Origin: Deltaproteobacteria bacterium
GTDB taxonomy: Bacteria; Desulfobacterota; GWC2-55-46
Direction: 5' to 3'
Length of the DNA stretch: 64,000 bases
Assembly: GCA_019912665.1 (NCBI GenBank)
Contig: JAIOIE010000018.1
Location: forward strand, 751,433 to 815,432
Shown here: in pieces, positions 3,452 through 24,509 of the stretch
Position numbering within the stretch: the stretch's first letter is position 1
Layout of the letters: every line of letters begins with the position of its first letter
Translations under genes and position numbers: made by a program
Notes under the pieces: generated by a model
Told to the model about the DNA's origin: nothing
The model's input: the letters and a program-made list of their open reading frames with translations, nothing else
Databases searched by the model: none

Positions 3452-3529
3452 GGACCTGCCCCCCGTAAACTGTGCCACTTGTAATTAGAATGGGGTCGTA
3501 ATAAAACATTCTAAACAAGGAGGCTGGGT

Positions 3530-3796
3530 ATGAAGAAGAGCCGGTACACGGAGGAGCAGATTGTAGGGATTTTGAAGGAGGGGGAGGCCGGTATCGCGGT
3601 GTCTGACCTGTGCCGCAAGTACGGGATGAGCGACGCCACCTACTACAACTGGAAGGCCAAGTACGGCGGCATGGCAATAAGCGATGTCCGGCGTCTCAAG
3701 GCGCTTGAGGACGAGAACAGGCGCCTTAAGCATCTGGTTGCCGACCTCACGCTCGATAACCAGGCTCTGAAGGCTGTCGTTGCAAAAAACTTCTAA
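3530..3796 (+). CDS. IS3-family transposase OrfA (HTH)
   Basis: Residues YTEEQIVGILKEGEAG...LCRKYGMSDATYYNWKAKYGG and a leucine zipper are present. A slippery A_AAA_AAC heptamer sits at 3784-3790. Confidence 0.85.
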   Translation: MKKSRYTEEQIVGILKEGEAGIAVSDLCRKYGMSDATYYNWKAKYGGMAISDVRRLKALEDENRRLKHLVADLTLDNQALKAVVAKNF

Positions 3797-4632: not shown

Positions 4633-4664
4633 TTACGAATGGCATTATAGATGGGGGCAGGTCC

Positions 4665-5429
4665 CCTTGCCTGTGTGTTTGACAGCTTATAAAGATTTAC
4701 AAGCTCATCAATGCATACAAGAAGACCTTCGAATCCGGCAAGTCTTACGAATCTCGCCATAAGTTTGAGATGGTCATATACTGTAGCATCATCTATTATT
4801 GTCCTTACTCCAAGGGCGGTTCTGGCTTCGGTTTTAGTGGAAAACTCGGCCCTCAGCCAGCGTATTGCATCCGATTTAAGCTGCTCGTTCCCCTGGTCAT
4901 GCCCTTTCCAATATTCGGCAATGACATGGGCGAAGTCATAACCGCCTACCATCTCAGTGAGCTCTGCGAGACGTTCATGTATGATTATTTCAGGCCCTTT
5001 GCCTGTCGAGCGAGCCTCTTTCAAAGACTCGGTTACGAACCTCTCGACGATGCTTTGGAGGGCTCCACCTTCCGGTTTTGATCTTGTGGCGATATTACGC
5101 ATTAGTTCAGCGTATAACGAGCGAGCCTTGCCGCCTGTCGCATGAATGCGCCTGTCAGGGGTCAAGTCGGCGTGGACTGTTACGAGACGCTTTTCAAGGG
5201 CGATAGCCCTTATTAAATTCAGAAAAAATGTTTTTCCCGAGCCGTATTCACCAATAACAAATCTTATCGTAGACCCTTTATCGGCTATCCTGTTTATATC
5301 GTTCAGGAGGGCTTCGACCTCTTTAACACGACCTACTTGTATCAGGTGCTGTCCAAGACGCGGCACAACCCCGGCCCTTAGAGACTGAATTATGGCGTCA
5401 CGTTCCCTTTGACGTATTTTCATCTGCAA
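4665..5429 (-). pseudogene. N-terminal ~255 codons of the Shango-like P-loop ATPase (sngB-like); the reading frame runs into the IS inverted repeat
   Basis: Walker A GEYGSGKTF and Walker B LLVCIDE are present. The predicted ORF ends with IS-encoded residues RGPAPIYNAIRN. Confidence 0.65.
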
Positions 5430-8100: not shown

Positions 8101-9650
8101 ATGGCACGTCAGACAAAAGACAAAAAGACCCCCAACGGCGGCAATCTCGGCTTTGAGGAAAAGCTCTGGCAGGCCGCTGACAAGATGCGCGGCCATATGG
8201 ATGCTTCGGAATACAAGCATGTAGTCCTCGGCCTCATCTTCCTTAAATACATATCAGACGCCTTCGAAGAGAAGCATCAGAAGCTTATGGAAGATAAATT
8301 TGCCGACCCTGAAGACCGCGACGAATACACCGCTGATAATATCTTCTGGGTTCCGAAGGGTGCCCGCTGGTCTTATCTGCAGGCGAACGCCAAACAACCA
8401 ACTATCGGCAAGCTCGTTGACGATGCGATGGTTGCCATTGAAAAGGAAAACTCCCAGCTTAAAGGAGTCCTCCCCAAAGACTACGCACGCCCGACCCTTG
8501 ATAAACATACCCTAGGCGAACTCATCGATTTAATCGGCACTATCGGCCTTGGCGATGCTGAGAGCCGCTCAAAAGACATACTTGGGCGTGTATATGAATA
8601 CTTCCTTGGACGCTTTGCCGCAGTTGAAGGTAAAAGTGGTGGCGAGTTTTACACTCCTCAGTCCGTCGTAAAAATACTGGTAGAGATGATAGAGCCTTAT
8701 AAGGGTCGTGTCTTTGACCCATGTTGCGGTTCGGGCGGTATGTTTGTTCAATCGGAAAAGTTCGTCGAGGCCCACGGGGGCAGGAAGGGGGATATCTCCA
8801 TCTACGGACAGGAGTCAAACCCCACGACATGGCGTCTGTGCAAGATGAATCTTGCGATAAGAGGCATTGACGGCAATATCGGGCCTCACCATGCGGACAG
8901 CTTCAGGCAGGATATCCATAAAGACCTTAAGGCGGACTTTATCCTTGCAAATCCTCCCTTTAACATAAGTGACTGGAAAGGCGAGCTCCTGATGTCAGAT
9001 GGAAATACGGCGCTCCTCCCGTGGGCAACGCGAACTTTGCCTGGGTTCAGCACTTTATCTACCATCTTTCCCCAAGTGGTGTGGCCGGTTTTGTTCTTGC
9101 GAACGGGTCCATGAGTTCAAATACAAGCGGCGAAGGCGAGATACGAAAGAACATAATCGAAGCCGACTTGGTAGATTGCATGATAGCTCTACCCGGACAG
9201 CTCTTCTATACAACGCCGATTCCTGTGTGCCTCTGGTTTGTAGCCCGTAGTAAGAAAAACGGCAAGTTCCGTGACAGGCGCGGCCAGACGCTCTTTATCG
9301 ATGCCCGAAAAATGGGCTATTTGATAGACAGAACACACAGGGAATTGTCCGATGAAGAGATTCAACGGATAGGTAAGACCTACCATGCCTGGCGAGGTGA
9401 AAAGGAAGCCGGAAAGTATGAAGATATCCCCGGCTTTTGCAAAAGCGCCACAATCGAGGAGATACATAGTCACGGTCACGTCCTCACGCCAGGCAGATAC
9501 GTCGGAGCCGAAGAGGTAGAGGATGACGGCGAGCCGTTTGAAGAGAAGATGAAGCGCCTTACCGCAAAGCTGAGCGCGCAGTTTAAGGAATCGGAGGGGC
9601 TGGAAAAGATTATAAAGGCGAACCTGAAGAGACTGGGGTATGGCGGATAA
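8101..9650 (+). pseudogene. hsdM: Type I R-M methyltransferase subunit HsdM, with a -1 frameshift near 8985-9025
   Basis: NPPFNISDW is in frame 1 up to GELL. The canonical continuation [26 protein letters not shown] is in frame 0. Two overlapping ORFs (8101-9114 and 9021-9650) together make one HsdM. Confidence 0.8.
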
Positions 9651-10752
9651 AAGAAAAACAAAAAAATCCAAATCTGAAATTGTGCAACAGGCTGCTGCAC
9701 AATTGCTATCAACGAGCTACGCTGAATTGCTCGAAGACCTCAAAGCGCGGATTCGCGCCGCGCAGATCCGCGCAGGTCTTGCAGCCAATAGTGAATTGAT
9801 CCAGCTCTACTGGAATGTTGGACAGCAAATATTGCTCCGACAACAAAAAGAGGGATGGGGTGCGAAAGTCATTGACCGCCTTGCCCGTGATTTACGCCGT
9901 GCATTTCCTGATATGAAGGGATTTTCTCCACGCAATCTCAAATACATGCGGGCGTTTGCCGAAACATATCAGGACAAACAATTTGTGCAACAGGTTGTTG
10001 CACAAATCCCCTGGGGGCATAATGTCCGTATTCTTGACCATGTAAAAGAATCGACTCAGCGCGAATGGTATATCCGACAGACCATCCAGCACGGCTGGTC
10101 ACGAGATATCCTTATCCACCAGATAGAAAGCGGTCTCTACAGGCGGCAGGGAAAAGCCATTACCAATTTCGACCGCACCCTACCCACGCCTCAATCCGAG
10201 CTTGCCCGGCAGGTCTTGAAAGATCCGTATGTCTTCGACTTCCTGAGTATCGGTGAGGAGGCAAAGGAACGGGATCTGGAAAAGGCCCTCTTGGAGCAGA
10301 TAAGGGCTTTCCTGCTTGAGTTGGGCGTCGGGTTTGCCTTTGTCGGTAGTCAGTACCATCTGGAGGTCGGCGGTGAGGATTTCTATATAGACCTTCTATT
10401 TTATCATCTCCACCTGCGCTGTTTCGTAGTCATCGAGCTTAAGATTGGGGAATTTCAGCCAGAATACGCTGGCAAGATGAACTTTTATCTTTCGGCGGTG
10501 GATGACCTCCTGCGCCATAAAGACGATCATCCGAGCATCGGCATAATCCTGTGCAAGGCCAAAAATAAGGTGATTGCGGAATATGCGCTCCGCGATACCA
10601 GAAAGCCGATCGGCGTTTCCGGATACAAACTTACGGAAACCTTGCCGAAGAACCTTAAAGGTGAACTGCCGAGCATTAAGGAACTGGAGGGGTCAATTTC
10701 GGCGTCTACTTCTGTATCAGGCTCGCTTACAATAACCAAAGGTGATTCCTGA
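9640..10752 (+). CDS. DUF1016 / YhcG-like PDDEXK nuclease family protein
   Basis: Carries the PDDEXK core [11 protein letters not shown]...ILC and N-terminal YhcG-like residues. It sits in the usual position between hsdM and hsdS. Confidence 0.75.
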
Positions 10753-11292: not shown

Positions 11293-12519
11293 ATGCAAGA
11301 TAAAAGCCCGATGACCCATTTAGAAAATATCTGTGAGATTATCATGGGGCAATCTCCAAAGGGAGAAACATATAATACTATAGGCAACGGGACACCTCTT
11401 TTGAATGGTCCAACAGAGTTCGGAGAACATCATCCCAAGCCTGTTTTATATACTACCTCACCTACCAGGCTATGTAAAAAAGGTGACCTGCTTTTCTGCG
11501 TTCGCGGTTCGACGACAGGTCGTATGAATTGGGCGGATGCTGAATATTGTATAGGGCGCGGTGTAGGGGCTTTCCGAGCCAAGAGCGATGAAATCGATAC
11601 TCGATTTATTTATTATACTTTGGTATGTGAATTGCCAAGGCTCCTGTCTCGATGCGCTGGCTCAGTTTTTCCTAATTTATCCCGCTCTGATTTCGAGACT
11701 TTTGATGTCGTGTGGCCTGATAGGAACATACGATCAGCCATCGCCCATATCCTCGGTGCGCTGGATGACAAGATAGAGCTTAACAGGCGAATGAACGAGA
11801 TGCTGGAGGCAATGGCTCGGGCAATCTTCAAGTCCTGGTTCGTGGACTTCGAGCCAATCCCCGGCTTCGGCCCTCACAAAGAATGGCAGGACTCCCCAAT
11901 CGGCAGGATTCCAAAAGGGTGGGATATTGCCACGCTCGGCGACTTCTCCTCATTGAATCCTGAGGTGTGGTCGAAGGAGACGCGCCCGGATGTAATCAAT
12001 TATGTCGATCTCTCGAATACGAAATGGGGCCGAATTGAAACAGTCACAATATATGCGAAAGGAGAAGCACCGAGCCGAGCCCAACGTGTATTGCGAGCAC
12101 AAGACACCATCGTCGGTACCGTGCGCCCCGGTAACGGCTCGTATGCTTTCATTTTAGAAGAAGGATTGACCGGAAGCACCGGGTTCGCAGTACTGAGACC
12201 CCTAAAAGCCGAGTATGCTGAGATTGTATATCTCACCGCCACAGCTGCCGACAATATCGAAAGGCTTGCGCACTTGGCGGACGGTGCAGCCTATCCGGCG
12301 GTGCGGCCTGATGTCGTTGTTGCAACGCAAATAGTTAAGCCAGTCGATAAAGTACTGAGGGCATTCTCTCACATTGTAGCACCATTGCTTGCCAAGATGT
12401 TTGTCAATGAACGAGAATCCCGTACCCTCGGCGCTATCCGCGACGCACTGTTGCCCAAACTCCTATTGGGCGAGATAAGAGTTAAGAATGGGGAGAAGTT
12501 TATAGTGGAGCGGACGTGA
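11293..12519 (+). CDS. hsdS: Type I R-M specificity subunit HsdS (two target-recognition domains)
   Basis: Residues LPKGWDIATLGDF are present. The conserved C-terminal coiled-coil tail is AIRDALLPKLLLGEIRV. Confidence 0.85.
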   Translation: MQDKSPMTHLENICEIIMGQSPKGETYNTIGNGTPLLNGPTEFGEHHPKPVLYTTSPTRLCKKGDLLFCVRGSTTGRMNWADAEYCIGRGVGAFRAKSDEIDTRFIYYTLVCELPRLLSRCAGSVFPNLSRSDFETFDVVWPDRNIRSAIAHILGALDDKIELNRRMNEMLEAMARAIFKSWFVDFEPIPGFGPHKEWQDSPIGRIPKGWDIATLGDFSSLNPEVWSKETRPDVINYVDLSNTKWGRIETVTIYAKGEAPSRAQRVLRAQDTIVGTVRPGNGSYAFILEEGLTGSTGFAVLRPLKAEYAEIVYLTATAADNIERLAHLADGAAYPAVRPDVVVATQIVKPVDKVLRAFSHIVAPLLAKMFVNERESRTLGAIRDALLPKLLLGEIRVKNGEKFIVERT

Positions 12520-13064
12520 TATTAGAATCTGCACCTTGGAAAGATGAGTTGCTTAAAATCGCTTTTCGTTTAGAAAAACGAAAACAGCAGAGAAGGTGGC
12601 TTGAAACTTCATTTGCAAAGCTGGAAATGGAAGTCTTTATTGCAGCTTACTGTATAAGGAAGCTTTTTGAGGCTGCAAAGACTTCCAGTAGTACCACTGC
12701 ATACCAGTTCAATGTGAAGGCATATCGTTTTATCGGTACGAATATAACAAAAATCAACTGGCATGAATTTGACGAGCATTATGACCTTAGAAAGCCAAAG
12801 ATCTTCAGGAAAGACGCCTTGTTTATCTGTAACCAGCTTGTCCACAGTTATGTATTTGCACCGGACCTTAAACGAACTGGAGGATTAAGGGGGATTTTCT
12901 TCTGCTCTGATCGGGAGCGGCACAGTTGGCTATACCTGCTTGCTATTGACGAATTGATACGATATCTGAAGAAAGTAGGCCGAGATTATCCTAACTACAG
13001 TTCATCATGCTTCGACCCAAAAAGGCGTGATTATGTCATCACCCATCAAGAGATGCTTAAATGA
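12516..13064 (+). CDS. Hypothetical protein (182 aa); its GTG start overlaps the hsdS stop (GTGA)
   Basis: Long ORF coupled to hsdS. No recognisable motif. Confidence 0.45.
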   Translation: MILESAPWKDELLKIAFRLEKRKQQRRWLETSFAKLEMEVFIAAYCIRKLFEAAKTSSSTTAYQFNVKAYRFIGTNITKINWHEFDEHYDLRKPKIFRKDALFICNQLVHSYVFAPDLKRTGGLRGIFFCSDRERHSWLYLLAIDELIRYLKKVGRDYPNYSSSCFDPKRRDYVITHQEMLK

Positions 13065-13065
13065 A

Positions 13066-13197
13066 ATGAAAGATAAACTCACAGAATCCATCATCGAAGT
13101 CGCCCTCGCCGCCATCAGCGATGCCCTGTTGCCAAAGCTCCTGTCGGGTGAGATAAGAGTTAAGTATGCAGAGAAGTTTGTGGAGGCTGTATCATGA
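13066..13197 (+). other. Duplicated hsdS 3' tail fragment (43-codon mini-ORF MKDKLTESIIEVALAAISDALLPKLLSGEIRVKYAEKFVEAVS)
   Basis: Near-identical at protein level to the real HsdS C-terminus. Its stop overlaps the next gene's ATG (ATGA). Confidence 0.8.
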
Positions 13198-14384
13198 TTC
13201 CCAAAACTTTTGATGCCATCTCAAAGTCTGACATAGAGGCACTTGTCGAAAATCAGGTGAGAGAAGGACGTACTATCGAGTACAAACAGGTTCTTCTTGG
13301 TAATTCAGACGAGGAGAAACGGGAGTTTCTATCCGATATCTCATCTTTCGCAAACGCGGGCGGAGGTGATTTGTTATATGGCATTTCGGCAACGGATGGC
13401 ATCCCACAGGATGCTTTAGGCCTGGAAAGCAATCTCGATGCTGAATTGCTTCGTTTGGAGAACCTAATCCGAGACAGTCTTGACCCTCGTGTGCATGGAT
13501 TGCGAATGAGAGCGATTGATGGATTCGCAAAAGGTCCTGTCCTGCTCATCCGCATTCCAAGGAGCTGGGCAGGCCCACACATGGTCACATTTAAGAACCT
13601 GTCGCGCTTCTTTACACGAAATAGTGCAGGGAAGCATCAAATGGATGTATTGGAGATAAGATCCGCCTGTTTGCTTGCAGATGCCTTGCCTGAAAAGATG
13701 AGACGCTTTCGTGACGAACGGCTGGGGAGGATAATCGCAAGCGCGACGCCCGTTCGCATGTTTGAGGGTGCAAAACTTGTGCTCCACATTTTGCCAGTTG
13801 CTGCTTTTACGTCGGACGCGAGCATTGAAGTGGCTGTCTTAAAGGCACGCTCTATGAGCAGTCTACGACCTATTGGAGCTTCAGGGTGGAATGACGGGTA
13901 CAATCTGGACGGCTTTCTTACCTATAGCGGCCCGTATGATAGCGCTGGATCAAGGGCATATTCGTTACTATTCCGAAAAGGGCAAATTGAGGCTGTTTTT
14001 GCGGATTTAGTAAGAGAGCGCGATGATCGGAGGTTTATTCCGAGCGTAGCCTATGAAGAATATATTATTCAAGGGGTCTTAGGTTATTTAGGCGTTTTGA
14101 AATCGTTAGAGATTCCGAGCCCGCTGGTGCTCTTTGTCTGCATGACAGGGGTGGCAAATGTGCATATGGGTGTTGACACCTTTTATTTTTCACATGGCGG
14201 CAGCCCCATAGACCGCGACACGCTGGTTCTGCCTGACATCCTTGTTGATGATTACGAATCCATAAATGATAAAAATGCGGTAGCCGGCGTTCTTCGACCG
14301 ATTTTTGACGCCGTTTGGAATGCATGCGGTTTTGAGCGCTCTTTCAATTTTGACGATAAAGGAAATTGGAAACCACGTAGATAA
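13194..14384 (+). CDS. AlbA_2 / Schlafen-like putative DNA-binding (divergent AAA) domain protein
   Basis: N-terminal EYKQVLL...ISSFANAGGGDLLYGI signature. This family is commonly embedded in R-M loci. Confidence 0.6.
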   Translation: MIPKTFDAISKSDIEALVENQVREGRTIEYKQVLLGNSDEEKREFLSDISSFANAGGGDLLYGISATDGIPQDALGLESNLDAELLRLENLIRDSLDPRVHGLRMRAIDGFAKGPVLLIRIPRSWAGPHMVTFKNLSRFFTRNSAGKHQMDVLEIRSACLLADALPEKMRRFRDERLGRIIASATPVRMFEGAKLVLHILPVAAFTSDASIEVAVLKARSMSSLRPIGASGWNDGYNLDGFLTYSGPYDSAGSRAYSLLFRKGQIEAVFADLVRERDDRRFIPSVAYEEYIIQGVLGYLGVLKSLEIPSPLVLFVCMTGVANVHMGVDTFYFSHGGSPIDRDTLVLPDILVDDYESINDKNAVAGVLRPIFDAVWNACGFERSFNFDDKGNWKPRR

Positions 14385-14492
14385 AAAGAGCTGGAAAAAA
14401 CTCTCGCCGCCATTCGCGATGCGCTTTTGCCAAAGTTGCTGTCGGGCGAGATAAAGGTAAAGGATGCGGAGAAGCTTGGGGAGGTAGTTTGA
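14385..14492 (+). other. Second duplicated hsdS 3' tail fragment (KELEKTLAAIRDALLPKLLSGEIKVKDAEKLGEVV), in frame directly after the AlbA_2 stop
   Basis: 36 codons with no start codon. It ends 1 nt before the next ATG. Confidence 0.8.
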
Positions 14493-14493
14493 C

Positions 14494-16413
14494 ATGGCAT
14501 TCACGGAGACACTGACAAGCTTAGCAATGCTAAAGGTCAACATTGATCAGGGTAAGGACTACCTCGAATATCTGCGACCTTTTATTCTGCAGATACTTAT
14601 TGACCAGAAGCCCGACCCCGTGACTGATGTGGTTGTCCGTGATCATCTTCGCACACAATTTGGCCTTGAGATTCCGGAGCGTGTTGCTCAGATTCTATTG
14701 AAGCGCATCTCTCGGTCGTATCTACTAAAGCGTGAAACTGGGGTATATCGAATCACGGGTACTTTACCAAACCCTGGGATTACTGCAAAGAAAACTGAAG
14801 CAGATCGACACATCAAGGCAGTGGTCTCAAGTCTGATAGAGTTCTCAAAGAACACCGCTAAGCCGATTACAACCGAAGATGAGGCGGTTACAGCCATTTG
14901 CGCATTCCTGGCAGAGTTCAATATCCCTTGTCTTCGTGCATACTTGAGAGGTACGGCCATTCCAACTGTCGAGGGCAAACACCATAGCCACATTGTGCTG
15001 GTCAGTGAGTATGTCGTACATCTGCAACGCACCAACCCTGAACGTTTTGAAAGCTTCCTCGTGGTGGTTCAAGGGCACATGCTGGCAAACGCCTTGCTTT
15101 GCCCAGACCTCCAAAACGCCCCAAAGTCATACAAGGGCGTCACTTTTTATTTAGATACCCCATTGTTGATACGACGGCTTGGGCTTGAGGGTAATCCAAA
15201 GCAGGCGGCGGCAGTAGAGCTAATCCGACTGCTGAAGAATCTTGATGCGGCCGTTGCTACGTTCGCACATTCGCGTGATGAACTGGATCGTGTGATCAGG
15301 GGCGCAGCCGATCATATAGAAGCACCGAGCGGCCGCGGGGCCATTGTTATGGAAGCAAGACGCAAAGGCACGACCAAATCTGACCTACTGCTCTTGGCAG
15401 GACAAATCGATGAGAAGCTCGCCGACTCTGGAATTGAGGTGAAGTGCACACCGAAATATATTGCAAACTTTCAGATCGATGAAACAGCTTTCGCTAAGGT
15501 ACTTGAGGATGAGGTGTCATACTTTAACTCGCGTGCCATGGATTATGATATCAACTCTGTGCGAAGTATCTATGCACTTAGGGTAAATTCGTCCCCCACG
15601 ATTGTGGAAAAGTGCGGAGCAGTTCTCGTCAGCAGTAATGAAGGTTTTGCACGGGCAGCATATGAGTACGGACAGCGGCATGAAGAGTCGCGCGAGGTGT
15701 CAAGCGTGATCACCGACTTCAGCCTGGCAAACATGGCTTGGTTGAAAGCTCCGATGGGTGCGCCGTCTCTACCGACCGCTGAGATACTCGCATTCTCTTA
15801 TGCAGCACTTCAGCCCTCAAAGGAGTTGCTTGACAAGTTTTTGGATGAGATGAATAAGTTGGAGAAACAAGGCAAGATTACTGCACGCGATCATCAGCTC
15901 CTCAGGAGTAGCACACTTGCACAAGAGGAGATGATGAGCCTGACGCTGGGAGAAGAGACAGCGCTTACCGAGAAGACGGTCACCGAGACACTGCGGCGCG
16001 TTTCAGAAGAAATCAAGAAGGAGGAAAGCGAGAAGCTTACAGCCGAGCAAATTGCTCATCGCAAAACTCAAGTTGAGCTTGATGCCGAACGTGTGACGAA
16101 AAAGCAAATTCAGGAACGGTTTTTCTGGCGATGTCTGAAGAATGCACAATACTGCGCGTGGGGGATTTCAGGGTTTATCTCTATTCTCATAATTGGTGGC
16201 ATCATTGCCGGATTCGGGCTCAAAGCGGCAAATCCTGCTCTTGGCTGGGTGCTTCTCGTAGGTTTGTCTGCACTGGCAATTGCGACAATAGCGAATCTTA
16301 TTTTCGGTGCTACTGTCCAGCAATTGCACAACTACATCGAAGAACGATGTCTTAAATTCTTTTTAAAACGCGTGTTTAAATCAAGCGGGATTGACATCGA
16401 GAATAGACTATGA
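14494..16413 (+). CDS. Hypothetical 639-aa protein with a C-terminal coiled coil and two predicted transmembrane helices
   Basis: Long ORF. The C-terminus GISGFISILIIGGIIAGFGL...WVLLVGLSALAIATIANLIFG is hydrophobic. No recognisable catalytic motif. Confidence 0.55.
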   Translation: MAFTETLTSLAMLKVNIDQGKDYLEYLRPFILQILIDQKPDPVTDVVVRDHLRTQFGLEIPERVAQILLKRISRSYLLKRETGVYRITGTLPNPGITAKKTEADRHIKAVVSSLIEFSKNTAKPITTEDEAVTAICAFLAEFNIPCLRAYLRGTAIPTVEGKHHSHIVLVSEYVVHLQRTNPERFESFLVVVQGHMLANALLCPDLQNAPKSYKGVTFYLDTPLLIRRLGLEGNPKQAAAVELIRLLKNLDAAVATFAHSRDELDRVIRGAADHIEAPSGRGAIVMEARRKGTTKSDLLLLAGQIDEKLADSGIEVKCTPKYIANFQIDETAFAKVLEDEVSYFNSRAMDYDINSVRSIYALRVNSSPTIVEKCGAVLVSSNEGFARAAYEYGQRHEESREVSSVITDFSLANMAWLKAPMGAPSLPTAEILAFSYAALQPSKELLDKFLDEMNKLEKQGKITARDHQLLRSSTLAQEEMMSLTLGEETALTEKTVTETLRRVSEEIKKEESEKLTAEQIAHRKTQVELDAERVTKKQIQERFFWRCLKNAQYCAWGISGFISILIIGGIIAGFGLKAANPALGWVLLVGLSALAIATIANLIFGATVQQLHNYIEERCLKFFLKRVFKSSGIDIENRL

Positions 16414-16472
16414 CCCCTTCAAGAATCACTGAATCTACCGCTGAAGAGGCTCTTTACGGTTGGCGAGATTGA
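16410..16472 (+). other. Duplicated hsdR 5' head fragment (MTPSRITESTAEEALYGWRD*), overlapping the orf639 stop (ATGA)
   Basis: Matches the real HsdR N-terminus [19 protein letters not shown] at 17334. Confidence 0.75.
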
Positions 16473-17125
16473 TTATAAAAAAATCTAATCGCTATGACAC
16501 CTCTGGCTTAACAGAGGCACAGTTTGAGCCTGGTTCGGGTCGGCGTGTGCTCAAGAATTTGCTCGGAATTAAGAGCAAGCGGGAGATGGACCGCATCGAA
16601 GCACTTGTTCAGCTTCCTGTTCTGGAGGAACTATCCAGCATCTATGATAAAGACCATAGGTTCACCGCCGCTGATATATGCAGGATTCACGAGATCTGGC
16701 TTGGGAGAATATATGAGTGGGCTGGACAATACAGGAGAGTAAATGTCAGCAAGGGAGACTTCCCTTTCGCAGCCGCCGGACATATACCAAGTTTAATGTC
16801 AGAGTTTGAAAAGAAGCTTCTTAAGAAATACACTCCTTGTCTTTACTCAGCACATAAAGACATAGTCAAGGCAATTGCTGTTGTCCATACAGAACTGGTT
16901 TTGATTCACCCCTTTCGCGAAGGGAACGGCAGGGTTGCCCGTATACTAAGTGCCCTGATGGCGTTACAGGCAGGATTGCCGTCACTGGATTTTACTGGAA
17001 TTAAGGGGAAGAGAAGACAAGAATACTTTGCGGCGGTAAGGGCTGGTATGGATAATAATTATGAGCCTATGGAAAAGATTTTTAACGCCGTGATTTCCCG
17101 GACACTACGGATTCAGAAAGGATAG
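16460..17125 (+). CDS. Fic/Doc family protein; start codon uncertain (TTG at 16460 or a downstream ATG)
   Basis: Fic motif HPFREGNGRVAR is present. Confidence 0.8.
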   Translation: MARLIIKKSNRYDTSGLTEAQFEPGSGRRVLKNLLGIKSKREMDRIEALVQLPVLEELSSIYDKDHRFTAADICRIHEIWLGRIYEWAGQYRRVNVSKGDFPFAAAGHIPSLMSEFEKKLLKKYTPCLYSAHKDIVKAIAVVHTELVLIHPFREGNGRVARILSALMALQAGLPSLDFTGIKGKRRQEYFAAVRAGMDNNYEPMEKIFNAVISRTLRIQKG

Positions 17126-17333: not shown

Positions 17334-20300
17334 ATGACCTTATCAAGAATCACCGAATCAACCACTGAAGAAGCTACCCTCGACTGGTTCAATGAACTGG
17401 GTTACTCTATCCTCAGCGGCCCTGATATTGCCCCTGGTGAACCGCTCGCCGAAAGGTCGGGTTATGGCGATGTCGTTTTAGAGGGCCGGCTCCGTTCTGC
17501 TTTATCCAGAATAAATGCCGCCATTCCTTCAGAAGCTATAGAAGATGCCATCCGTAAGCTCCTGCGAGCTGTCCATGAGTCCCCCCTTCTTTACATCAAT
17601 AATCACCGCTTCCATAAGGTCCTTACCGATGGGATCGATATTGAATACAAAAATTCTGAAGGACGGATTGTTGGGGACAAAGTCTGGCTCATTGATTTCA
17701 ATAATCCTGGTAACAACGACTGGCTGGCGGTCAATCAGTTTACGGTTGTCGAGGGACAAAGCAACAGACGCCCTGATGTAGTGGTTTTTATCAACGGGCT
17801 CCCTTTAGGGGTTATTGAGCTAAAAAACCCGGCAGACGAAAACGCCACGATAAAGAATGCTTTTAATCAGCTTCAGACTTATAAAAACGAAATCCCCTCC
17901 CTTTTTTCCTATAACGAAATTCTTATAGTCTCAGACGGTCTTGAGGCGAGGACTGGCACCCTAACTGCCGATTGGGAATGGTTCATGCCGTGGCGGACTA
18001 TTGAGGGTGAGGATTTGGCGCCCAAAGGGATGCCGGAGCTTGAGGTGTTAATCAAGGGGATATTCGACAAGTCGAGATTCCTGGATATCCTCAGATACTT
18101 TGTTGTTTTTGAGACGGACGGGGCGCTTGTCATAAAGAAGATGGCCGCCTACCATCAGTTCCATGCAGTAAACAGGGCTGTAGACTGCACATTGACTGCG
18201 GCTTCTCCGAGGGGAGACAGAAGGGTTGGAGTAGTCTGGCACACGCAGGGAAGCGGCAAAAGCCTGACCATGACCTTTTATGCTGGAAAGATTATTCAGC
18301 GCCATGAGATGGAAAACCCCACCCTTATTGTCCTTACTGACAGGAACGACCTTGACGACCAGCTGTTCGGCACTTTTTCAAGGTGTCTGAGCCTCTTGAG
18401 GCAGACCCCTGTCCAATCCCGGAGCAGAGAGCACCTTAAAGAACTTTTGAGTGTCGCTTCGGGCGGGGTTGTTTTTACCACTATACAGAAGTTTCTCCCC
18501 GAAAAGGGGCTGGATTACCTAAGACTTTCGGATAGAAGCAATATAATCGTCATCGCTGACGAGGCCCACAGGAGCCAATACGATTTCATAGATGGTTTTG
18601 CAAGGCACATGAGGGACGCCGTGCCCAAGGCGTCCTTTATCGGCTTTACCGGCACACCCATTGAAGCTGACGACAGAAACACGCCCGCCGTCTTCGGCAA
18701 CTATATAAGCATATATGACATCCAGCGGGCCGTTGAGGACGGAGCCACTGTGCGTATCTACTATGAGGCGCGCCTTGCGAAGCTTGAGCTGAAGGCAGAG
18801 GAGCTCCCCAGGATAGACCCTGAGTTTGAGGAAATAACGGAGGGCGAGGAAGAAGCGACTAAAGAGAAACTCAAGCGGAAATGGGCGCAGTTTGAGGCGA
18901 TGGTGGGGACTGAAAAGCGCATCGGTCTTGTGGCAGAGGATATTGTTGAGCACTTTGAAAGCAGACTTGAAGCCATGGACGGCAAGGGGATGGTAGTCTG
19001 CATGAGCCGCAGGATCTGCATTGACTTGTACAACGCTATTGTGAAACTGCGGCCAGAGTGGCACAGCGAGGACGACGACAGAGGGTTTTTGAAAATTGTA
19101 ATGACCGGGTCCGCAAGCGACCCTGCGGACTGGCAAAGCCATATCAGAAATAAGGCGCGCAGGGAATCCATGGCCAAGAACTTTAAAAAACCGGACAACC
19201 CCTTTAAGTTAGTTATAGTCCGGGACATGTGGCTTACCGGGTTTGACGCCCCCTGCCTCCATACAATGTACATAGATAAACCGATGCGCGGACATGGACT
19301 CATGCAAGCGATAGCCCGTGTGAACAGGGTATTTAAGGATAAGCCTGGCGGGCTTGCTGTGGATTATCTTGGCATAGCGGATGAACTCAAAAAGGCCCTT
19401 TCGAATTACACTGAAAAAGACCGCGATATTACCGGCATCCCGCAGGAAGAGGCTGTCGCTGTGATGCTGGAGAAATTTGAGATAGTCTCGGCGATATTGC
19501 ATGGTTTTGACTATTCAGGGTTTCTCAAAGGCGCTCCATCTGAGAAACTGACAACCGTAAAGGAAGCGCTGGAGCATATCCTTGCTCTCGAAGACGGAAA
19601 AAATAGGTTTATGCAGGCGGTTACGGAGCTTTCAAGGGCGTTTGCGCTTTCAGTGCCACATGAAAAAGCGATGGCTATTAGGAATGACGTCGGGTTTTTC
19701 CAAGCGTTAAGGGGAGCCTTTGCCAAGAATACCGTGACCGACGGCAAAAGCCCGGAGATGCTTGATTCGGCAATACGGCAGATCGTCTCAAAGGCTGTGG
19801 CATCCGGAGAGGTAATCGACATCTTCTCTTCAGCGGGCCTCAAGAGGCCGGACATCTCGATTCTGTCGGATGAGTTCCTGGAAGAGGTCCGCAATATGCC
19901 GCAGCGTAACCTCGCCTTAGAACTTTTAAAAAAGCTGTTGAACGATGAGATAAAGGCACGCTCCAAAAAGAACCTGGTGCAGGCAAGATCTTTTGCGGAA
20001 ATGCTTGAGGAAACCGTAAGGAGGTATCAGAACCGTGCCATCGAGGCCGCCCAGGTCATAACCGAGCTTATCGATCTTGCAAAAGACATGAGGGAAGCCC
20101 ACAAGCGGGGTGAGAAGCTTAATCTTACCGAAGAAGAGGCCGCCTTCTACGATGCACTTGAGACCAACGACAGCGCGGTCCATGTCCTCGGCGACGAAAA
20201 GCTGAAAATAATAGCCAGAGAGCTGGTCGAGACTGTAAAAAGAAATGCGACGATAGACTGGACGGTCAAGGAAAGCGTTAAGGCTAAGCTTAGGACTATG

Positions 20301-20408
20301 GTAAAGCGTATACTCCGGAAATACGGCTATCCACCAGATATGCAGGAGAAGGCGACAAAAACCGTTTTGGAGCAGGCGGAGCTTCTTGGCGCTAACTGGG
20401 CAGCGTAA
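17334..20408 (+). CDS. hsdR: Type I restriction enzyme R subunit HsdR
   Basis: N-terminal HsdR_N region. Helicase motifs GSGKS and DEAH-equivalent ADEAHRSQ are present. Length 1024 aa. Confidence 0.9.
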
Positions 20409-20707: not shown

Positions 20708-22525
20708 TTGTCACCTGAGCAGATGCTAAAGTTTCTGGGTGTTTTTTCTTATAGGAGGCTGTTGATGGCTATTGATATAAATTGGTTTTTGATGACGGAT
20801 ATAAAAAAACGTTCTTTAATCAAGGCATCCTGGACTCCGTTATGCGCGTATGATGAACATACAATAAATGGAGAACCTGGCCATATTGGATATGAGAGAG
20901 AATATTTTGGATCGGTTGGTCTTATTTTCCCTATTGATCAGGCACGAGAAGCATTCTTGCTTCAATGGGATGAAGTTATCCCAAAATGGGGGCATAAGCC
21001 TTGCGTTGAAAACGGGAAATATTTTCCTGCGGATGTTTATTCTTTTTGCAATGGCTTGCTAGGTACCTATCCTGTATTACAACAGTCATTTGATAGCGGT
21101 GAGCCTTGTGTATGGCATCTGTCGCAAGACATCATTTTAGGGCTTGGATTATTACGTGAAAGAGATGGCTGGGTTCGTCCCCAAGAAGACTATTTGGAAG
21201 TTGCTCGGCTTAAGCGCATTCAGGAAGGAAAGCCTGTGCGCTTTGAAATACGAACGGAGCATCTCCGCGATTTTCTTTGCGCCAGGGAATCCGGGATATT
21301 AATTGTCACATATCATTTGAGAGAAATAATCGTGGACTCTGCACCAGATTTTGGGTGGAAGAACGGAATCGCAAATGAGACTGGAGAAAATTATCATTGG
21401 AATGGACATATTCATCCTATTCACGAAGGTGGATTCCCATTCGGAGAAAAGATAGCAGTCTTCCACATGGGTAGAACTAATATCGATCCTAATGACGATA
21501 TACCGACCTTTGGCATGCCTGGAGAAGATGAATACAAGTCGAGCTCTTGGGTAAGGACGCCTACTGGTCGGCAGCTTTTTAGCATTACGGGTGAAATGTG
21601 GAGGACCGAATGGATTCCTCCATTAGAGACTAGTCCTCGGGTCAGAGGTGATAAGGAAGAGTCACACATATCGTTTCAGATCGACAGTGCTGGAACCACT
21701 TTAGCTGGTAAGAAGCTTTATGACCATAGAGGATGGATCTGGTTCAAGCCATCAATAATTCGCACTCTGCTGGAAAAGCGAAACGGGGTTCTCGAATGGT
21801 ATACCGATGAGACTGGTTGTGTTGGCCCTGCTCCTAATATGGGAGTACATTTTGGTGTCAACGAGCTTGGCTTAATTAATGTATTGGCAAAGGATATAGC
21901 CTCATTACCAACTATCTATCAGCGCGTATGGGTGGCACACAATATACCTCCTGACGGCCGAGTTTCAAAAGAATTACTAAAGTCGCAGATGGAGGCGGAA
22001 CCAGCCGATACAAAAGCTCCGGAAGTCATACTAAAAAAGGCGATTGAACATCTTCAGAAAGCGTCCACTTATTTTCTTGGTCGGCCCATGCTCAAAGAGC
22101 ATCACATTTCAACGAAAATCGATCGTGAAATTCATAGATTCCATGGACAGAGCATGGAAGGCTTGTTTTTTCTTTGCAAAGAGTTGACAAGGTTAATAGT
22201 AGAGCGAATAGATGTCGATTTATTAAAGGAGCTTGACCCCGCTGCTGACAAAAAATTAGGCTCTATTAAGCGGCTGGAATATTTCCTTAATTCTAAAGGT
22301 TTTGAAGGACGTAAAATCATGGCAGCACTGGCTGGTGTTTACGACTTACGTATAGGGGACTCTCATTTGCCTTCTACAGAGATTACGGAATCTTTGAAAC
22401 TGCTGGGCATTGGAGACACTGGTGATTACCAGAAAATGGCGAAACAAATAATTCTTTCCGTTGCGTATTCTATAGGGACAATAGGAGATATCATAATAAA
22501 GTCTAGCAAAGACAATAGGGCTTAG
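20708..22525 (+). CDS. Hypothetical 605-aa protein at the island edge, no recognisable domains
   Basis: Long ORF with lower GC than the core. The start may be the internal ATG at codon 20. Confidence 0.5.
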   Translation: MSPEQMLKFLGVFSYRRLLMAIDINWFLMTDIKKRSLIKASWTPLCAYDEHTINGEPGHIGYEREYFGSVGLIFPIDQAREAFLLQWDEVIPKWGHKPCVENGKYFPADVYSFCNGLLGTYPVLQQSFDSGEPCVWHLSQDIILGLGLLRERDGWVRPQEDYLEVARLKRIQEGKPVRFEIRTEHLRDFLCARESGILIVTYHLREIIVDSAPDFGWKNGIANETGENYHWNGHIHPIHEGGFPFGEKIAVFHMGRTNIDPNDDIPTFGMPGEDEYKSSSWVRTPTGRQLFSITGEMWRTEWIPPLETSPRVRGDKEESHISFQIDSAGTTLAGKKLYDHRGWIWFKPSIIRTLLEKRNGVLEWYTDETGCVGPAPNMGVHFGVNELGLINVLAKDIASLPTIYQRVWVAHNIPPDGRVSKELLKSQMEAEPADTKAPEVILKKAIEHLQKASTYFLGRPMLKEHHISTKIDREIHRFHGQSMEGLFFLCKELTRLIVERIDVDLLKELDPAADKKLGSIKRLEYFLNSKGFEGRKIMAALAGVYDLRIGDSHLPSTEITESLKLLGIGDTGDYQKMAKQIILSVAYSIGTIGDIIIKSSKDNRA

Positions 22526-22937: not shown

Positions 22938-24509
22938 TTGAGTTATAACAGGTTGCCTTTAAATTTTAATTTCTACTTGGAGACGGTGATGAAAAAGAAC
23001 ACGCTATGTCGATTTTTAAAGAAAGCAAGTTTAATCCTTTCCGCGCCTTTCATAGCATTGGGATTTATGGCAACGATGATGGCCGGGTGTGGCGGCGGTG
23101 GCTCTTCAAGCAGTGGCGCAGCTACCGCAACGGGCCTCTTGGTAGATAGCGCCGTTCAAGGGGTAAGCTATGTGTCCGGCGGCCAGTCCGGCGTGACCGG
23201 GGCTGACGGCTCTTTTACATATGAGGTCGGGAACACGATTACATTCTCAATAGGCAATATCGTACTCGGCAATGTAGGTATAGAGCCAAAGGGGATCATG
23301 ACGCCGCTCGATCTGGCGGGAGCAGTAGACGCGACAGACACGGCAGTAGTGAACCTGGCCATTTTTCTTATGACCCTGGACAGCGACCAGGACCCCTCGA
23401 ACGGGATAGAGATCGAACCGGACGTAAGGACCGCCGCCGCCTCCCCATCTGTCACGCAGATAGATTTTTCTACTGCTAACGTGGGTGATCTTACATCCTT
23501 ACTAGGCGTGCTCACATCAAGTCCCGTTGTAAGCGCTGAGGATGCTTTGTCCCATGTGTCTGGCAGCATACTTAATCTCTATGCGGGATCGTACACTGGC
23601 ACATTTGCCGGCGATGATTCAGGGACCTGGAGCGCGACCATCGACTCGGATGGAGTAATAACCGGGACCTTTACCGGAACTAGCAGCGGCACCCTCAGCG
23701 GCAGTATCGACACGAGCGGAAGCATGTTCTTCTCTACCAGCGGGAACACTTCCGAAGGCACTGTATTCAGCGGCACCATTGACATTTCTACCGGTTCGGC
23801 GGCGGGCACCTGGAGTGATGATGAGGACTCCGGGACGTATGCGGGCAATAAAATATCCTCGATTATAGGCTCTTGGTACAGCGGCACGGGTCCTGACGAC
23901 CTGGTCGTACTCACCTTTTTTGAAGACGGGACCTACATGTTCTCCCAAGACGGGAATGCCGCGCAGCATGGAGATGAAGGCCAGGATGGAATGGAGCGCG
24001 GCACGTATGCCTGGGATTCCAGCACCGGAGCCTTCACGGCATCTCCGGCTGTAGACACAAGCGGTGACTGGGGGCTCTCACATCCTCAGGGCACCGTGAC
24101 CGTACAGATCAACGGCAATGTAATGACAATGACCGATTCCGTAGAGGGCATATATACCGCAGTTCGCGTTACAAACGGCAGCGGCTCGATTGTCGGCAGC
24201 TGGTATAATGGCAGCACCTCTCAGACCAATAATCTTGTCATACTGACTTTTTTTGAGGACGGCACCTACATGTTTTCCCAGGACGGGAATGCCGCGCAGC
24301 ACGGAGATGGGGGGCAGGATGGAATGGAACGCGGTACTTATGCCTGGGATTCCGGCACAGGGGCCTTCACGGCGACCCCGGCTGTAGACACAAGCGGTGA
24401 ATGGGGGCTTTCACACCCCGATGGCAGCGTGACGGTGCAGGTCAACGGCAATAATATGACTATGACCGATTCAGGAGGCGGCATTACCGCAACGCGTATC
24501 CTGCCATAG
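22938..24509 (+). CDS. Probable secreted lipoprotein, G/S/T-rich, with two near-identical ~105-aa tandem repeats
   Basis: Signal peptide with lipobox-like MMAGC. The repeats SWY.G....L.ILTFFEDGTYMFSQDGNAAQHGD.GQDGMERGTYAWDS.TGAFTA.PAVDTSG.WGLSHP cover ~23,880-24,500. Confidence 0.6.
   Translation: MSYNRLPLNFNFYLETVMKKNTLCRFLKKASLILSAPFIALGFMATMMAGCGGGGSSSSGAATATGLLVDSAVQGVSYVSGGQSGVTGADGSFTYEVGNTITFSIGNIVLGNVGIEPKGIMTPLDLAGAVDATDTAVVNLAIFLMTLDSDQDPSNGIEIEPDVRTAAASPSVTQIDFSTANVGDLTSLLGVLTSSPVVSAEDALSHVSGSILNLYAGSYTGTFAGDDSGTWSATIDSDGVITGTFTGTSSGTLSGSIDTSGSMFFSTSGNTSEGTVFSGTIDISTGSAAGTWSDDEDSGTYAGNKISSIIGSWYSGTGPDDLVVLTFFEDGTYMFSQDGNAAQHGDEGQDGMERGTYAWDSSTGAFTASPAVDTSGDWGLSHPQGTVTVQINGNVMTMTDSVEGIYTAVRVTNGSGSIVGSWYNGSTSQTNNLVILTFFEDGTYMFSQDGNAAQHGDGGQDGMERGTYAWDSGTGAFTATPAVDTSGEWGLSHPDGSVTVQVNGNNMTMTDSGGGITATRILP

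What the first reader, a model, noticed from the sequence alone, without database searches (positions are those of the whole stretch)
14494..16413. Unknown 639-aa membrane-anchored protein embedded between hsdS and hsdR, a candidate novel effector
It has a large soluble N-terminal region with no recognisable motif. The C-terminus carries a coiled coil and two closely spaced TM helices (GISGFISILIIGGIIAGFGL / WVLLVGLSALAIATIANLIF). It follows the AlbA_2/Schlafen-like gene and the 182-aa unknown, so all three may act together as an R-M-embedded module comparable to PrrC/RloC-type passengers. Membrane-tethered C-terminal helices are typical of abortive-infection effectors.
Basis: inference. Interest (0 to 1): 0.7.

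Follow-up and report, generated by a model that had tools for sequence, protein, structure and literature searches.

The report
Membrane-anchored PIN nuclease riding restriction operons
The 639-aa gene is real and belongs to a large unnamed protein family, predicted to be a DNA/RNA-binding head plus a VapC-like PIN nuclease held at the inner membrane; it repeatedly sits between hsdS and hsdR of type I restriction systems as a self-contained cassette, so it is a good but untested antiviral-effector candidate.

Summary
The ORF at 14494..16413 is intact, lies between hsdS and hsdR, and ends in a long helix plus two hydrophobic helices that are conserved across the family.

The family is large, with about 3,900 clusters at 50% identity. 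In 35 of 79 genomic loci it sits in a type I R-M operon, often overlapping the hsdS stop and the hsdR start. One copy lies in an Hma-like system. The rest are solitary, some on plasmids.

The proposed orf182 + AlbA_2 + orf639 module is not supported. Neither neighbour co-occurs with orf639 in any of the 79 loci. In the window each passenger follows its own copy of the hsdS 3' tail, and orf639 is followed by a 20-codon hsdR-head remnant. The passengers are therefore stacked independent cassettes.

Best reading: an autonomous, membrane-tethered PIN nuclease that is a passenger of R-M operons. Defence function is inferred, not shown.

The parts
14401..14492 (+). Remnant copy of the hsdS 3' end (…TLAAIRDALLPKLLSGEIKVKDAEKLGEVV*). 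Its stop codon lies 1 nt before the orf639 ATG. This is the left border of the orf639 cassette.
   Evidence: Direct-repeat family D1: 12425-12508 (true hsdS end), 13103-13186 (81%) and 14401-14484 (73%). Translation. The same hsdS-tail/orf639 junction is seen in relatives.
14494..16413 (+). orf639, the full coding sequence (639 aa plus stop).
   Evidence: Homologues.
14560..14754 (+). Predicted winged helix-turn-helix, aa 23-87 (three helices followed by a beta hairpin).
14779..15093 (+). Helical linker domain, aa 96-200. It ends in the nearly invariant GHMLANALLCPDL motif.
15130..15753 (+). Predicted VapC-like PIN nuclease domain, aa ~213-420, with helical insertions at aa 283-311 and 330-340. 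Candidate active-site residues: D221 (15154-15156), E263 (15280-15282), D352 (15547-15549) and N382 (15637-15639).
15970..16149 (+). Long helix, a presumed coiled-coil stalk, aa 493-552. It runs directly into TM1.
   Evidence: Helix 493-573 in the full-length AF2 model, block pLDDT about 68-85. Charged, heptad-like sequence.
16156..16308 (+). Two-helix membrane hairpin: TM1 about aa 555-576, an 8-9 residue loop, and TM2 about aa 585-605.
   Evidence: Hydropathy peaks of 2.26 and 2.39, family-wide conservation of C-terminal hydrophobic segments, and a positive-inside charge pattern.
16410..16472 (+). 20-codon remnant of the hsdR 5' end (MTPSRITESTAEEALYGWRD*). It starts in an ATGA overlap with the orf639 stop codon. 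This is the right border of the cassette.
   Evidence: Translation, compared with the real HsdR N-terminus [18 protein letters not shown]…. DNA alignment with true orf639/hsdR junctions of L004, L006, L017 and L031. The -4 overlap occurs in 8 of 26 loci.
11293..12519 (+). hsdS of the host type I R-M operon. Its 3' end is the reference copy of the repeated tail.
   Evidence: Methylase_S at 7e-17. Repeat family D1.
17334..20408 (+). hsdR of the host type I R-M operon.
   Evidence: HSDR_N, SWI2_SNF2, T1R_D3-like and T1RH-like_C domains.

Best explanation
orf639 is a self-contained, horizontally mobile single-gene cassette. Its preferred home is the hsdS-hsdR junction of one family of type I R-M operons.

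The predicted protein is cytoplasmic and anchored to the inner membrane by a C-terminal two-helix hairpin at the end of a long, probably oligomerising, helical stalk. Its soluble part is an N-terminal winged helix (nucleic-acid binding or sensing), a helical domain, and a VapC-like PIN domain with an intact Asp-Glu-Asp(+Asn) metal-binding set.

The most likely mechanism is as follows. The protein is co-expressed with the restriction enzyme and acts as a second-line antiviral effector. On infection the PIN domain cleaves nucleic acid at or near the membrane. RNA is the more likely substrate, because the closest folds are VapC tRNases and rRNases. Cleavage either arrests the infected cell or destroys viral transcripts or incoming genome.

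Shown here: the ORF, the family, the predicted architecture, the invariant residues, the recurrent R-M embedding and the cassette borders. Inferred: nuclease activity, substrate, trigger and defence function.
For: Architecture:
- The AF2 model of aa 1-500, built on a 109-sequence alignment, has pLDDT 87.9 and pTM 0.81.
- The less confident full-length model gave the same ranking.

Active site:
- D221/T222 sit at the end of beta1 (FYLDTP), E263 in the helix after beta2, D352 at the start of the helix before beta4, and T380-x-N382 after beta4.
- These residues are invariant in 109 sequences and in plasmid homologues of only 19-23% identity.
- They mirror the invariant D7/T8, E42, D98 and T114-N-N116 of tRNA(fMet)-specific VapC.

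Membrane anchor: it is conserved across the family.

Context:
- 35 of 79 loci are in type I R-M operons.
- The hsdS stop overlaps the orf639 start in 16 of 32 loci. The orf639 stop overlaps the hsdR start in 8 of 26.
- One copy lies between the DUF499 ATPase and the DUF1156 methylase of an Hma-like system.
- Four solitary-looking copies are adjacent to a type III methyltransferase.

Autonomy:
- No conserved partner gene or small ORF was found.
- A neighbour-joining tree needs at least 13 switches between R-M and non-R-M context.
- Solitary copies occur on Klebsiella, Enterococcus and Pantoea plasmids.

Precedents:
- Genes embedded in type I R-M, BREX, DISARM and Hma systems are enriched for defence functions (Payne et al., bioRxiv 10.1101/2024.01.29.577857).
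- A one-protein PIN system without an antitoxin (DS-3) defends E. coli against phage (PMC13092281).
Against: - No experiment supports any activity.
- The PIN assignment rests on a predicted structure only. Pfam PIN-clan hits are sub-threshold: PIN_12 at 0.017, PIN at 0.094, PIN_3 at 0.099 and NYN at 0.078.
- hhalign against a VapC profile is not significant: probability 0.5%, with only the 8-column LVTSN/VVTNN stretch aligned.
- Foldseek E-values are all above 0.04.
- The fourth acidic residue of classical VapC (E119) is not conserved here.
- About half of the loci have ordinary housekeeping neighbours such as nrdAB, tRNA synthetases and recA. Defence-island association is therefore not universal.
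- No homologue matched PADLOC candidate models or phage genomes.
- hsdM in this window is split by a frameshift, so the host operon may be inactive here.
Confidence: 0.55

Rival explanations
1. PrrC-like guardian. The protein binds the type I R-M complex, which keeps the PIN nuclease latent. Phage anti-restriction proteins that disable the R-M enzyme release it, and it then cleaves tRNA or rRNA (abortive infection).
For: It occupies the same operon position as prrC, between hsdS and hsdR (PMC12707154; Payne et al.). Stop/start overlaps with both hsdS and hsdR suggest stoichiometric co-expression. The partner is always the same R-M subfamily, with HsdR 55-70% identical even where orf639 has diverged to 45-52%. 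The closest folds are VapC tRNases.
Against: More than half of the family members have no R-M neighbour, including plasmid copies in Enterococcus and Klebsiella. The tree needs at least 13 context switches. One copy sits in an Hma-like system instead. The restriction to one R-M subfamily could equally follow from recombination that needs homologous hsdS tails and hsdR heads. In this window hsdM is frameshifted yet orf639 is intact.
Confidence: 0.2
2. The killing part is the membrane hairpin. Oligomers assembled through the stalk depolarise or permeabilise the inner membrane on activation. The winged-helix and PIN-like region is only a nucleic-acid sensor or a degenerate, non-catalytic fold.
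For: The C-terminal 2-TM segment is present in all 122 members checked. A long helix fit for oligomerisation precedes it. Many known defence effectors are small TM modules (background knowledge: retron 2TM effectors, CBASS Cap14/15, Cam1). The fourth PIN acidic residue is missing.
Against: TM sequences are poorly conserved, with only a few Gly and Trp positions shared. The PIN region is the most conserved part, and three acidic residues plus N382 are invariant down to 19% identity. That pattern is expected for a catalytic site and a simple anchor, not the reverse.
Confidence: 0.1
3. The function is not defensive. It could be a selfish addiction or stabilisation gene (a fused toxin with built-in control) that hitch-hikes in R-M operons and plasmids. 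Alternatively it could be an accessory that tethers or regulates the R-M enzyme at the membrane.
For: There is mobile, patchy distribution with 64-78% identity across phyla. Copies sit on plasmids among IS elements. Cassette borders indicate recombinational spread. Many copies have non-defence neighbours.
Against: No antitoxin-like partner or conserved small ORF was found. Embedding inside three kinds of defence operon (type I, Hma-like, next to type III MTases) fits the guilt-by-embedding pattern. A tether role would not require an invariant nuclease-like site.
Confidence: 0.12
4. One reading: orf182, the AlbA_2 protein and orf639 form one three-gene R-M-embedded module.
For: The three genes are adjacent, on the same strand, and lie inside one operon in this window.
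Against: Co-occurrence is 0 of 79 for either neighbour. Each gene is preceded by its own hsdS-tail copy. In most relatives orf639 directly abuts hsdS and hsdR.
Confidence: 0.03

Closest known systems
PrrC / RloC anticodon nucleases (type I R-M passengers)
   Same: They occupy the same genomic niche: a single gene between hsdS and hsdR, on the same strand and co-transcribed. The family is also found outside R-M loci, as RloC is. The predicted activity is an RNA-cleaving effector.
   Different: There is no homology. PrrC and RloC are ABC-ATPase plus HEPN-type nucleases and are soluble. orf639 has no NTPase domain, has a PIN fold, and is membrane-anchored. PADLOC PrrC/RloC models did not match.
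VapC toxins (PIN domain, PF01850) of type II toxin-antitoxin systems
   Different: VapC is a ~130-aa stand-alone domain neutralised by a VapB antitoxin. Here the PIN carries ~80 residues of insertions and is embedded in a 639-aa multidomain membrane protein with no partner gene. No significant sequence or profile similarity was found. The fourth acidic residue is not conserved.
DS-3 (DefensePredictor) and HEC-09 / HEC-03 (Payne et al.): PIN-containing defence candidates
   Same: They are one-protein or embedded systems that use a PIN-like nuclease without an antitoxin. HEC-09 also pairs an HTH-like N-terminus with a PIN-like domain.
   Different: The DS-3 PIN is split between the N- and C-termini. 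HEC-09 is NYN/MARF1-like and gave no protection. HEC-03 needs an ABC ATPase partner. None is described as membrane-anchored. No PADLOC HEC or PDC model matched orf639. The DS-3 sequence itself was not compared.
TgvAB, BrxU and other defence genes embedded in R-M, BREX or Hma operons
   Same: They share the organisational principle of one defence system nested in another, possibly with complementary targets (PMC11411939).
   Different: Those are GmrSD-type modification-dependent DNases and are unrelated in fold and architecture.
Membrane-anchored PIN proteins of the YacL / PIN-TRAM type (from memory, not tested here)
   Same: They combine a PIN domain with transmembrane helices.
   Different: In those proteins the TM segments are N-terminal and a TRAM domain follows. 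No winged helix or coiled-coil stalk is present. No Pfam match to that family was found.

Membership tests
PIN-like nuclease superfamily (fold level) | A three-layer alpha/beta/alpha fold with a parallel beta-sheet, superimposable on VapC/PIN structures. | tested here: met
PIN-like nuclease superfamily (fold level) | Conserved acidic residues (Asp at the end of beta1, Glu, Asp, plus a less conserved fourth) that form the metal site. | tested here: inconclusive
   D221, E263 and D352 are invariant and sit on the expected secondary-structure elements. The fourth position is not conserved, while N382 is invariant.
Pfam PIN families (PF01850 PIN, PIN_3, PIN_12, NYN etc.) | A sequence match above the curated gathering score. 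| tested here: not met
   Only sub-threshold hits, E 0.017-0.099, in 1-2 of 23 members. hhalign against a VapC profile gave probability 0.5%.
VapBC type II toxin-antitoxin system | An adjacent small antitoxin gene (VapB) that neutralises the PIN toxin. | tested here: not met
   No conserved neighbouring ORF of any size in 79 loci. The short ORFs found downstream are hsdR 5' remnants.
PrrC/RloC anticodon nucleases | An N-terminal ABC-type NTPase plus a C-terminal HEPN-like anticodon nuclease domain. | tested here: not met
   No PADLOC, Pfam or NCBIfam match. The predicted fold is a winged helix plus PIN.
PrrC/RloC anticodon nucleases | Location between hsdS and hsdR of a type I R-M operon (PrrC). 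| tested here: met
   Seen in the window and in 35 of 79 related loci. This is a positional analogy only.
Defence genes 'embedded' in multi-gene defence systems (guilt-by-embedding, Payne et al. 2024) | Same-strand gene nested between the genes of a known defence system, recurring in several systems or lineages, and neither a mobilome nor a housekeeping gene. | tested here: met
   Found in type I R-M operons of many phyla and in an Hma-like system (L047). No transposase, integrase or housekeeping family match.
Defence genes 'embedded' in multi-gene defence systems (guilt-by-embedding, Payne et al. 2024) | Experimentally shown protection against phage. | not testable with these tools
   This needs plaque assays.
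PADLOC phage-defence candidates (PDC/HEC models) | A match to an existing PDC or HEC HMM. | tested here: not met
   Only a weak LeoBC hit (E 0.0024) confined to the coiled-coil/TM region aa 478-603. By contrast the neighbours DUF1016 (PDC-S02, 1.6e-162) and Fic (PDC-S04, 5e-74) match strongly.

The most novel reading that the evidence does not exclude
The family is a new class of membrane-tethered PIN nuclease. It either works physically with the type I restriction enzyme at the inner membrane, or attacks viral nucleic acid at the point of genome entry.

In the first version it would be a PIN-based, membrane-bound functional analogue of PrrC that fires when the restriction complex is blocked. 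In the second it would act independently of R-M.

In addition, the conserved hsdS 3' tail and hsdR 5' head would act as recombination 'handles'. These handles would let such passenger cassettes be swapped and stacked between R-M operons across phyla.
Probability: 0.2. Interest if true: 0.8.

Novelty: new variant of a known kind. Interest (0 to 1): 0.62.

Why it matters
If the prediction holds, a family with thousands of members would gain a function. The family is found from Nitrospirota and Chloroflexota to plasmids of Enterococcus faecium and Klebsiella, and it currently has no Pfam, NCBIfam or PADLOC model.

It would also add a new architecture to the list of R-M-embedded backup defences: winged helix, PIN, stalk and 2-TM anchor. 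Until now PrrC-type soluble anticodon nucleases and GmrSD-type enzymes have been the worked examples.

The cassette borders seen here are duplicated hsdS tails and hsdR heads. They give a concrete, testable mechanism for how passengers accumulate inside type I R-M operons. The guilt-by-embedding paper consulted here does not address this: 'recombination' has 0 occurrences in its text.

The plasmid homologues in culturable pathogens make the hypothesis directly testable.

Tried and rejected
Sequence and family searches that found nothing useful:
- Pfam, NCBIfam, PADLOC and PHROGs on the full protein gave no family. The LeoBC hit (E 0.0024) covers only the coiled-coil/TM part and was dismissed as compositional.
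- PDB sequence searches with the single sequence and two profiles gave only TRAP-gamma and other noise in the TM/helical parts.
- A Pfam scan of the isolated PIN segment of 23 diverse members gave sub-threshold PIN-clan hits only.
- hhalign of the PIN-segment profile against a VapC profile was not significant.

Structure searches:
- The first AF2 run used 30 close homologues and was poor in the core (pLDDT 64.8). It was replaced by a 109-sequence run restricted to aa 1-500.
- Foldseek against PDB gave no significant E-value and no multidomain match.
- The AFDB fold library was unavailable.

Context tests:
- The test for an orf182/AlbA_2/orf639 module was negative.
- The search for a conserved partner or antitoxin ORF in 700-nt flanks and among 40-140-aa ORFs found none. 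It turned up hsdR-head remnants instead.
- Pfam and PADLOC scans of neighbours in the 43 non-hsd loci gave mostly heterogeneous housekeeping genes, with a few methyltransferases, reverse transcriptases and MzaA.
- The promoter/terminator scan of the operon was not different from shuffled sequence.
- The phage genome collection has no homologue.
- The window has no tRNA gene.
Full report
**1. The observation**

- The window has an intact 639-codon ORF at 14494..16413 on the + strand. A GGAGG motif lies 9 nt upstream of the ATG.
- Pfam annotation of the surrounding ORFs gives one same-strand array:
  - hsdM (8101-9650, split over two frames)
  - a DUF1016/YhcG PD-(D/E)XK gene (9640-10752)
  - hsdS (11293-12519)
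  - orf182 (12516-13064)
  - an AlbA_2 gene (13194-14384)
  - orf639
  - a Fic gene (16460-17125)
  - hsdR (17334-20408)
- So the gene is indeed embedded between hsdS and hsdR.
- All 122 relatives examined have at least one such segment in their last 170 residues, and 113 have none elsewhere.
- The K+R count before, between and after the helices is 6/1/6. This fits a cytoplasmic N-terminal body with an N-in/C-in hairpin.
- The full-length AlphaFold model predicts one continuous helix from aa 493 to 573, running into TM1. That it forms a coiled coil is inferred.

**2. The family**

- A word-indexed search found 1,244 homologues. The best 120 are 64-99% identical over the full length and come from many phyla. 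None has a Pfam domain or a name other than 'hypothetical protein'.
- An exhaustive profile search of 1.84 billion cluster representatives found 3,912 clusters at E<=0.001 and 1,690 at E<=1e-30.
- Members as distant as 34% identity keep the whole architecture.
- tblastn against plasmids found 19-30% identical, ~645-655-aa 'hypothetical proteins' in Klebsiella quasipneumoniae, Enterococcus faecium, Pantoea, Arthrobacter, Hymenobacter and Sporosarcina.
- No homologue is present in 50,697 phage records.
- Sequence-based searches of Pfam, NCBIfam, PADLOC, PHROGs and PDB returned nothing meaningful.

**3. Predicted structure**

- I collected divergent relatives with a second protein search seeded from a 34%-identical member. 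I then built a 109-sequence alignment (A4).
- Residues 1-500 were then modelled with pLDDT 87.9 and pTM 0.81.
- The poorer model had already given the same order.
- Foldseek produced no significant E-value and no multidomain match. The only hits with probability >=0.9 were PIN domains.
- The predicted layout is:
  - winged helix, aa 23-87
  - helical domain, aa 96-200
  - PIN domain, aa ~213-420, with helical insertions
  - helical region, aa 426-492
  - stalk, aa 493-552
  - two TM helices
  - short amphipathic tail

**4. The putative active site**

- Seventeen columns are invariant across the 109 sequences. They include D221-T222 (FYLDTP, end of beta1), E263 (helix after beta2), D352 (YDINSVRS, start of the helix before beta4) and N382 (LVTSN, after beta4).
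- These four positions, plus the W416-L417-K418 motif, survive in the 19-23% identical plasmid proteins.
- A 23-member alignment of genuine tRNA(fMet)-specific VapC proteins (all PF01850) has its invariant residues on the equivalent elements: D7-T8, E42-L43, D98, T114-N-N116 and E119-F120.
- Three of the four classical acidic residues are therefore matched. The fourth (E119) is not conserved in the orf639 family.
- Sequence-level support is lacking:
  - PIN-clan Pfam hits stay sub-threshold.
  - hhalign aligns only the 8-column LVTSN/VVTNN stretch, at probability 0.5%.
- The PIN assignment is therefore a fold-level inference from a predicted structure, supported by the conservation pattern.

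**5. Genomic context of relatives**

- A scan of 185,579 species genomes returned 79 loci with up to 10 kb of flanks.
- tblastn with the window's neighbours gave these counts:

| Neighbour | Loci with a hit (of 79) |
|---|---|
| hsdS | 32 |
| hsdM | 29 |
| hsdR | 28 |
| DUF1016 | 3 |
| Fic | 1 |
| orf182 | 0 |
| AlbA_2 | 0 |

- Clustering all neighbouring ORFs showed that hsdS, hsdM and hsdR are the only recurrent partners. hsdS is the immediate upstream ORF in 23 loci and hsdR the immediate downstream ORF in 12.
- The hsdS stop overlaps the orf639 start (-1, -4 or -10 nt) in 16 of 32 loci and lies within 22 nt in 22 of 32. The orf639 stop overlaps the hsdR start (ATGA) in 8 of 26.
- In the 43 loci without hsd genes the neighbours are heterogeneous and often housekeeping: nrdAB, tRNA synthetases, recA, polA.
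- A minority of these loci have defence-type neighbours. Four have a type III methyltransferase, and there are also MzaA and reverse transcriptases.
- One copy (L047) lies between a DUF499 ATPase and a DUF1156 methylase, the hallmark genes of the Hma system described by Payne et al..
- No conserved small ORF or antitoxin-like partner exists.
- A neighbour-joining tree of 65 intact members needs at least 13 changes between R-M and non-R-M context.

**6. Cassette borders in the window**

- The 84-nt 3' end of hsdS (…LGAIRDALLPKLLLGEIRVKNGEKF…) occurs three times as a direct repeat:

| Copy | Coordinates | Identity to reference | Position |
|---|---|---|---|
| 1 | 12425-12508 | reference | true end of hsdS |
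| 2 | 13103-13186 | 81% | between orf182 and AlbA_2 |
| 3 | 14401-14484 | 73% | between AlbA_2 and orf639 |

- The frame that contains the third copy stops at 14490-14492, 1 nt before the orf639 ATG. This reproduces the junction seen in relatives.
- At the other end, the orf639 stop overlaps an ATG (ATGA at 16410-16413). That ATG opens a 20-codon ORF, MTPSRITESTAEEALYGWRD*.
- This peptide is nearly identical to the first residues of the real Hsd[19 protein letters not shown]….
- orf639 therefore carries both native junctions: an hsdS tail upstream and an hsdR head downstream.
- Each of the other passengers has its own hsdS tail, and Fic sits between the hsdR-head remnant and the real hsdR.
- Similar relics occur elsewhere:
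  - hsdR-head fragments follow orf639 in L010, L012, L014, L032 and L040.
  - L018 has a hybrid hsdR-head::hsdS-tail ORF after orf639.
  - L072 has a duplicated hsdS tail.
- The simplest reading is that passengers are exchanged and stacked by recombination in the conserved ends of hsdS and hsdR.
- This contradicts the idea that orf182, AlbA_2 and orf639 are one functional module.

**7. Mechanism**

- Shown: a conserved multidomain membrane protein, a predicted PIN fold with an invariant acidic set, tight operonic integration with one type I R-M subfamily, and frequent existence without it.
- Inferred: the protein is a metal-dependent nuclease held at the inner membrane by a stalk and hairpin, and expressed together with the restriction enzyme.
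- Inferred: it serves as an additional antiviral layer.
- RNA is the more likely substrate because all the closest folds are VapC tRNases or rRNases. DNA cannot be excluded.
- The winged helix and helical domain are the obvious candidates for substrate binding or sensing and for auto-inhibition, since there is no antitoxin gene.
- A one-protein PIN system lacking an antitoxin (DS-3) has been shown to protect E. coli. Its authors suggested that it stays auto-inhibited until infection (PMC13092281).
- The PrrC paradigm is that the R-M complex holds the nuclease latent and phage Stp releases it (PMC12707154). It fits the position and the translational coupling. It is weakened by the many R-M-free copies.
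- The subfamily-specific association could also be a by-product of recombination that depends on tail and head homology.

**8. Comparison with known systems and novelty**

- Functionally the closest analogues are PrrC/RloC (same niche, unrelated fold), VapC (same fold, different architecture and no antitoxin) and recently reported PIN-containing defence candidates (DS-3, HEC-09, HEC-03).
- Organisationally it belongs with 'embedded' defence genes such as TgvAB (PMC11411939) and the PDC/HEC sets of Payne et al..
- It matches none of the PADLOC candidate models. By contrast, its neighbours DUF1016 (PDC-S02) and Fic (PDC-S04) match strongly.
- I found no paper that describes this family.
- I rate it a new variant of a known kind: an R-M-embedded nuclease effector with a previously undescribed architecture.

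**9. Verdict**

- The three-gene module is rejected.
- 'No motif' is replaced by a winged helix plus PIN domain.
- Defence function is plausible (about 0.6) but untested.
- Interest: 0.62.

Noticed in passing
window 12425-12508, 13103-13186, 14401-14484; 16410-16472 vs 17334-17390: There are three direct copies of the hsdS 3' end, one in front of each passenger gene. There is also a duplicated hsdR 5' end on either side of the Fic gene. This suggests passenger cassettes are stacked inside type I R-M operons by recombination in the conserved hsdS tail and hsdR head.
   Followed up: partly
L018 5736-5972; L072 9712-9744 and 9885-9914; L010, L012, L014, L032, L040 just downstream of the orf639 homologue: The same relics occur in other genomes. 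L018 has a hybrid ORF made of an hsdR head fused to an hsdS tail after orf639. L072 has a duplicated hsdS tail. Truncated hsdR heads follow orf639 even in loci that now lack an R-M system.
   Followed up: partly
window 8101-9650 (frameshift near 8976-9000): hsdM is split over two reading frames: 8101-9114 carries HsdM_N plus the first half of N6_Mtase, and 9021-9650 carries the second half. It is a single ORF in relatives. This is either a sequencing error or a real inactivation of the R-M system.
   Followed up: partly
window 656-7740, minus strand: A second defence-like cluster lies upstream. It comprises a DEAD/ResIII helicase (656-2869), a BrxC/BrxD-type ATPase split into two pieces (2866-3417 and 4629-5429) by an inserted IS with an rve-family transposase (3943-4632), and a TerB_N/TerB/TerB_C protein (5398-7740).
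   Followed up: no
window 9640-10752 and 16460-17125: The two other passengers match PADLOC candidate defence families strongly: DUF1016/YhcG PD-(D/E)XK matches PDC-S02 (E 1.6e-162) and Fic matches PDC-S04 (E 5e-74). The operon thus carries five passengers in all.
   Followed up: no
window 12516-13064, 20708-22525, 22938-24509, 25437-27278: orf182, a 605-aa ORF directly after hsdR, and two further large ORFs (523 and 613 aa) have no significant match in Pfam. The first three also have none in NCBIfam or PADLOC (the 613-aa ORF was not scanned there), and orf182 and the 605-aa ORF have none in PHROGs.
   Followed up: no
window 1-23000 vs 23000-64000: G+C is about 0.45-0.50 in the first 23 kb, with a dip to 0.38 at 22-23 kb. 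It is 0.55-0.62 in the rest. The R-M and defence region therefore looks like a horizontally acquired island. No tRNA gene is present in the window.
   Followed up: no
L047 4606-14895: An orf639 homologue lies inside an Hma-like cluster: DUF499 ATPase, an AAA-ATPase_like/PDDEXK_9 protein, orf639, and a DUF1156 methylase.
   Followed up: partly
L051, L058, L065 (upstream of the orf639 homologue): In three gammaproteobacterial genomes (Methylovulum, a Porticoccaceae MAG and Microbulbifer) the homologue sits directly downstream of ribonucleotide reductase genes. This may be a recurrent insertion site.
   Followed up: no
L080 4707-6674; L081 5989-7947; L082 5974-7911: Distant homologues (19-23% identity, same length, same invariant residues) are solitary 'hypothetical proteins' on plasmids of K. 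quasipneumoniae, E. faecium and Pantoea piersonii. The Klebsiella and E. faecium copies lie among IS elements and resistance genes. These are convenient experimental models.
   Followed up: partly
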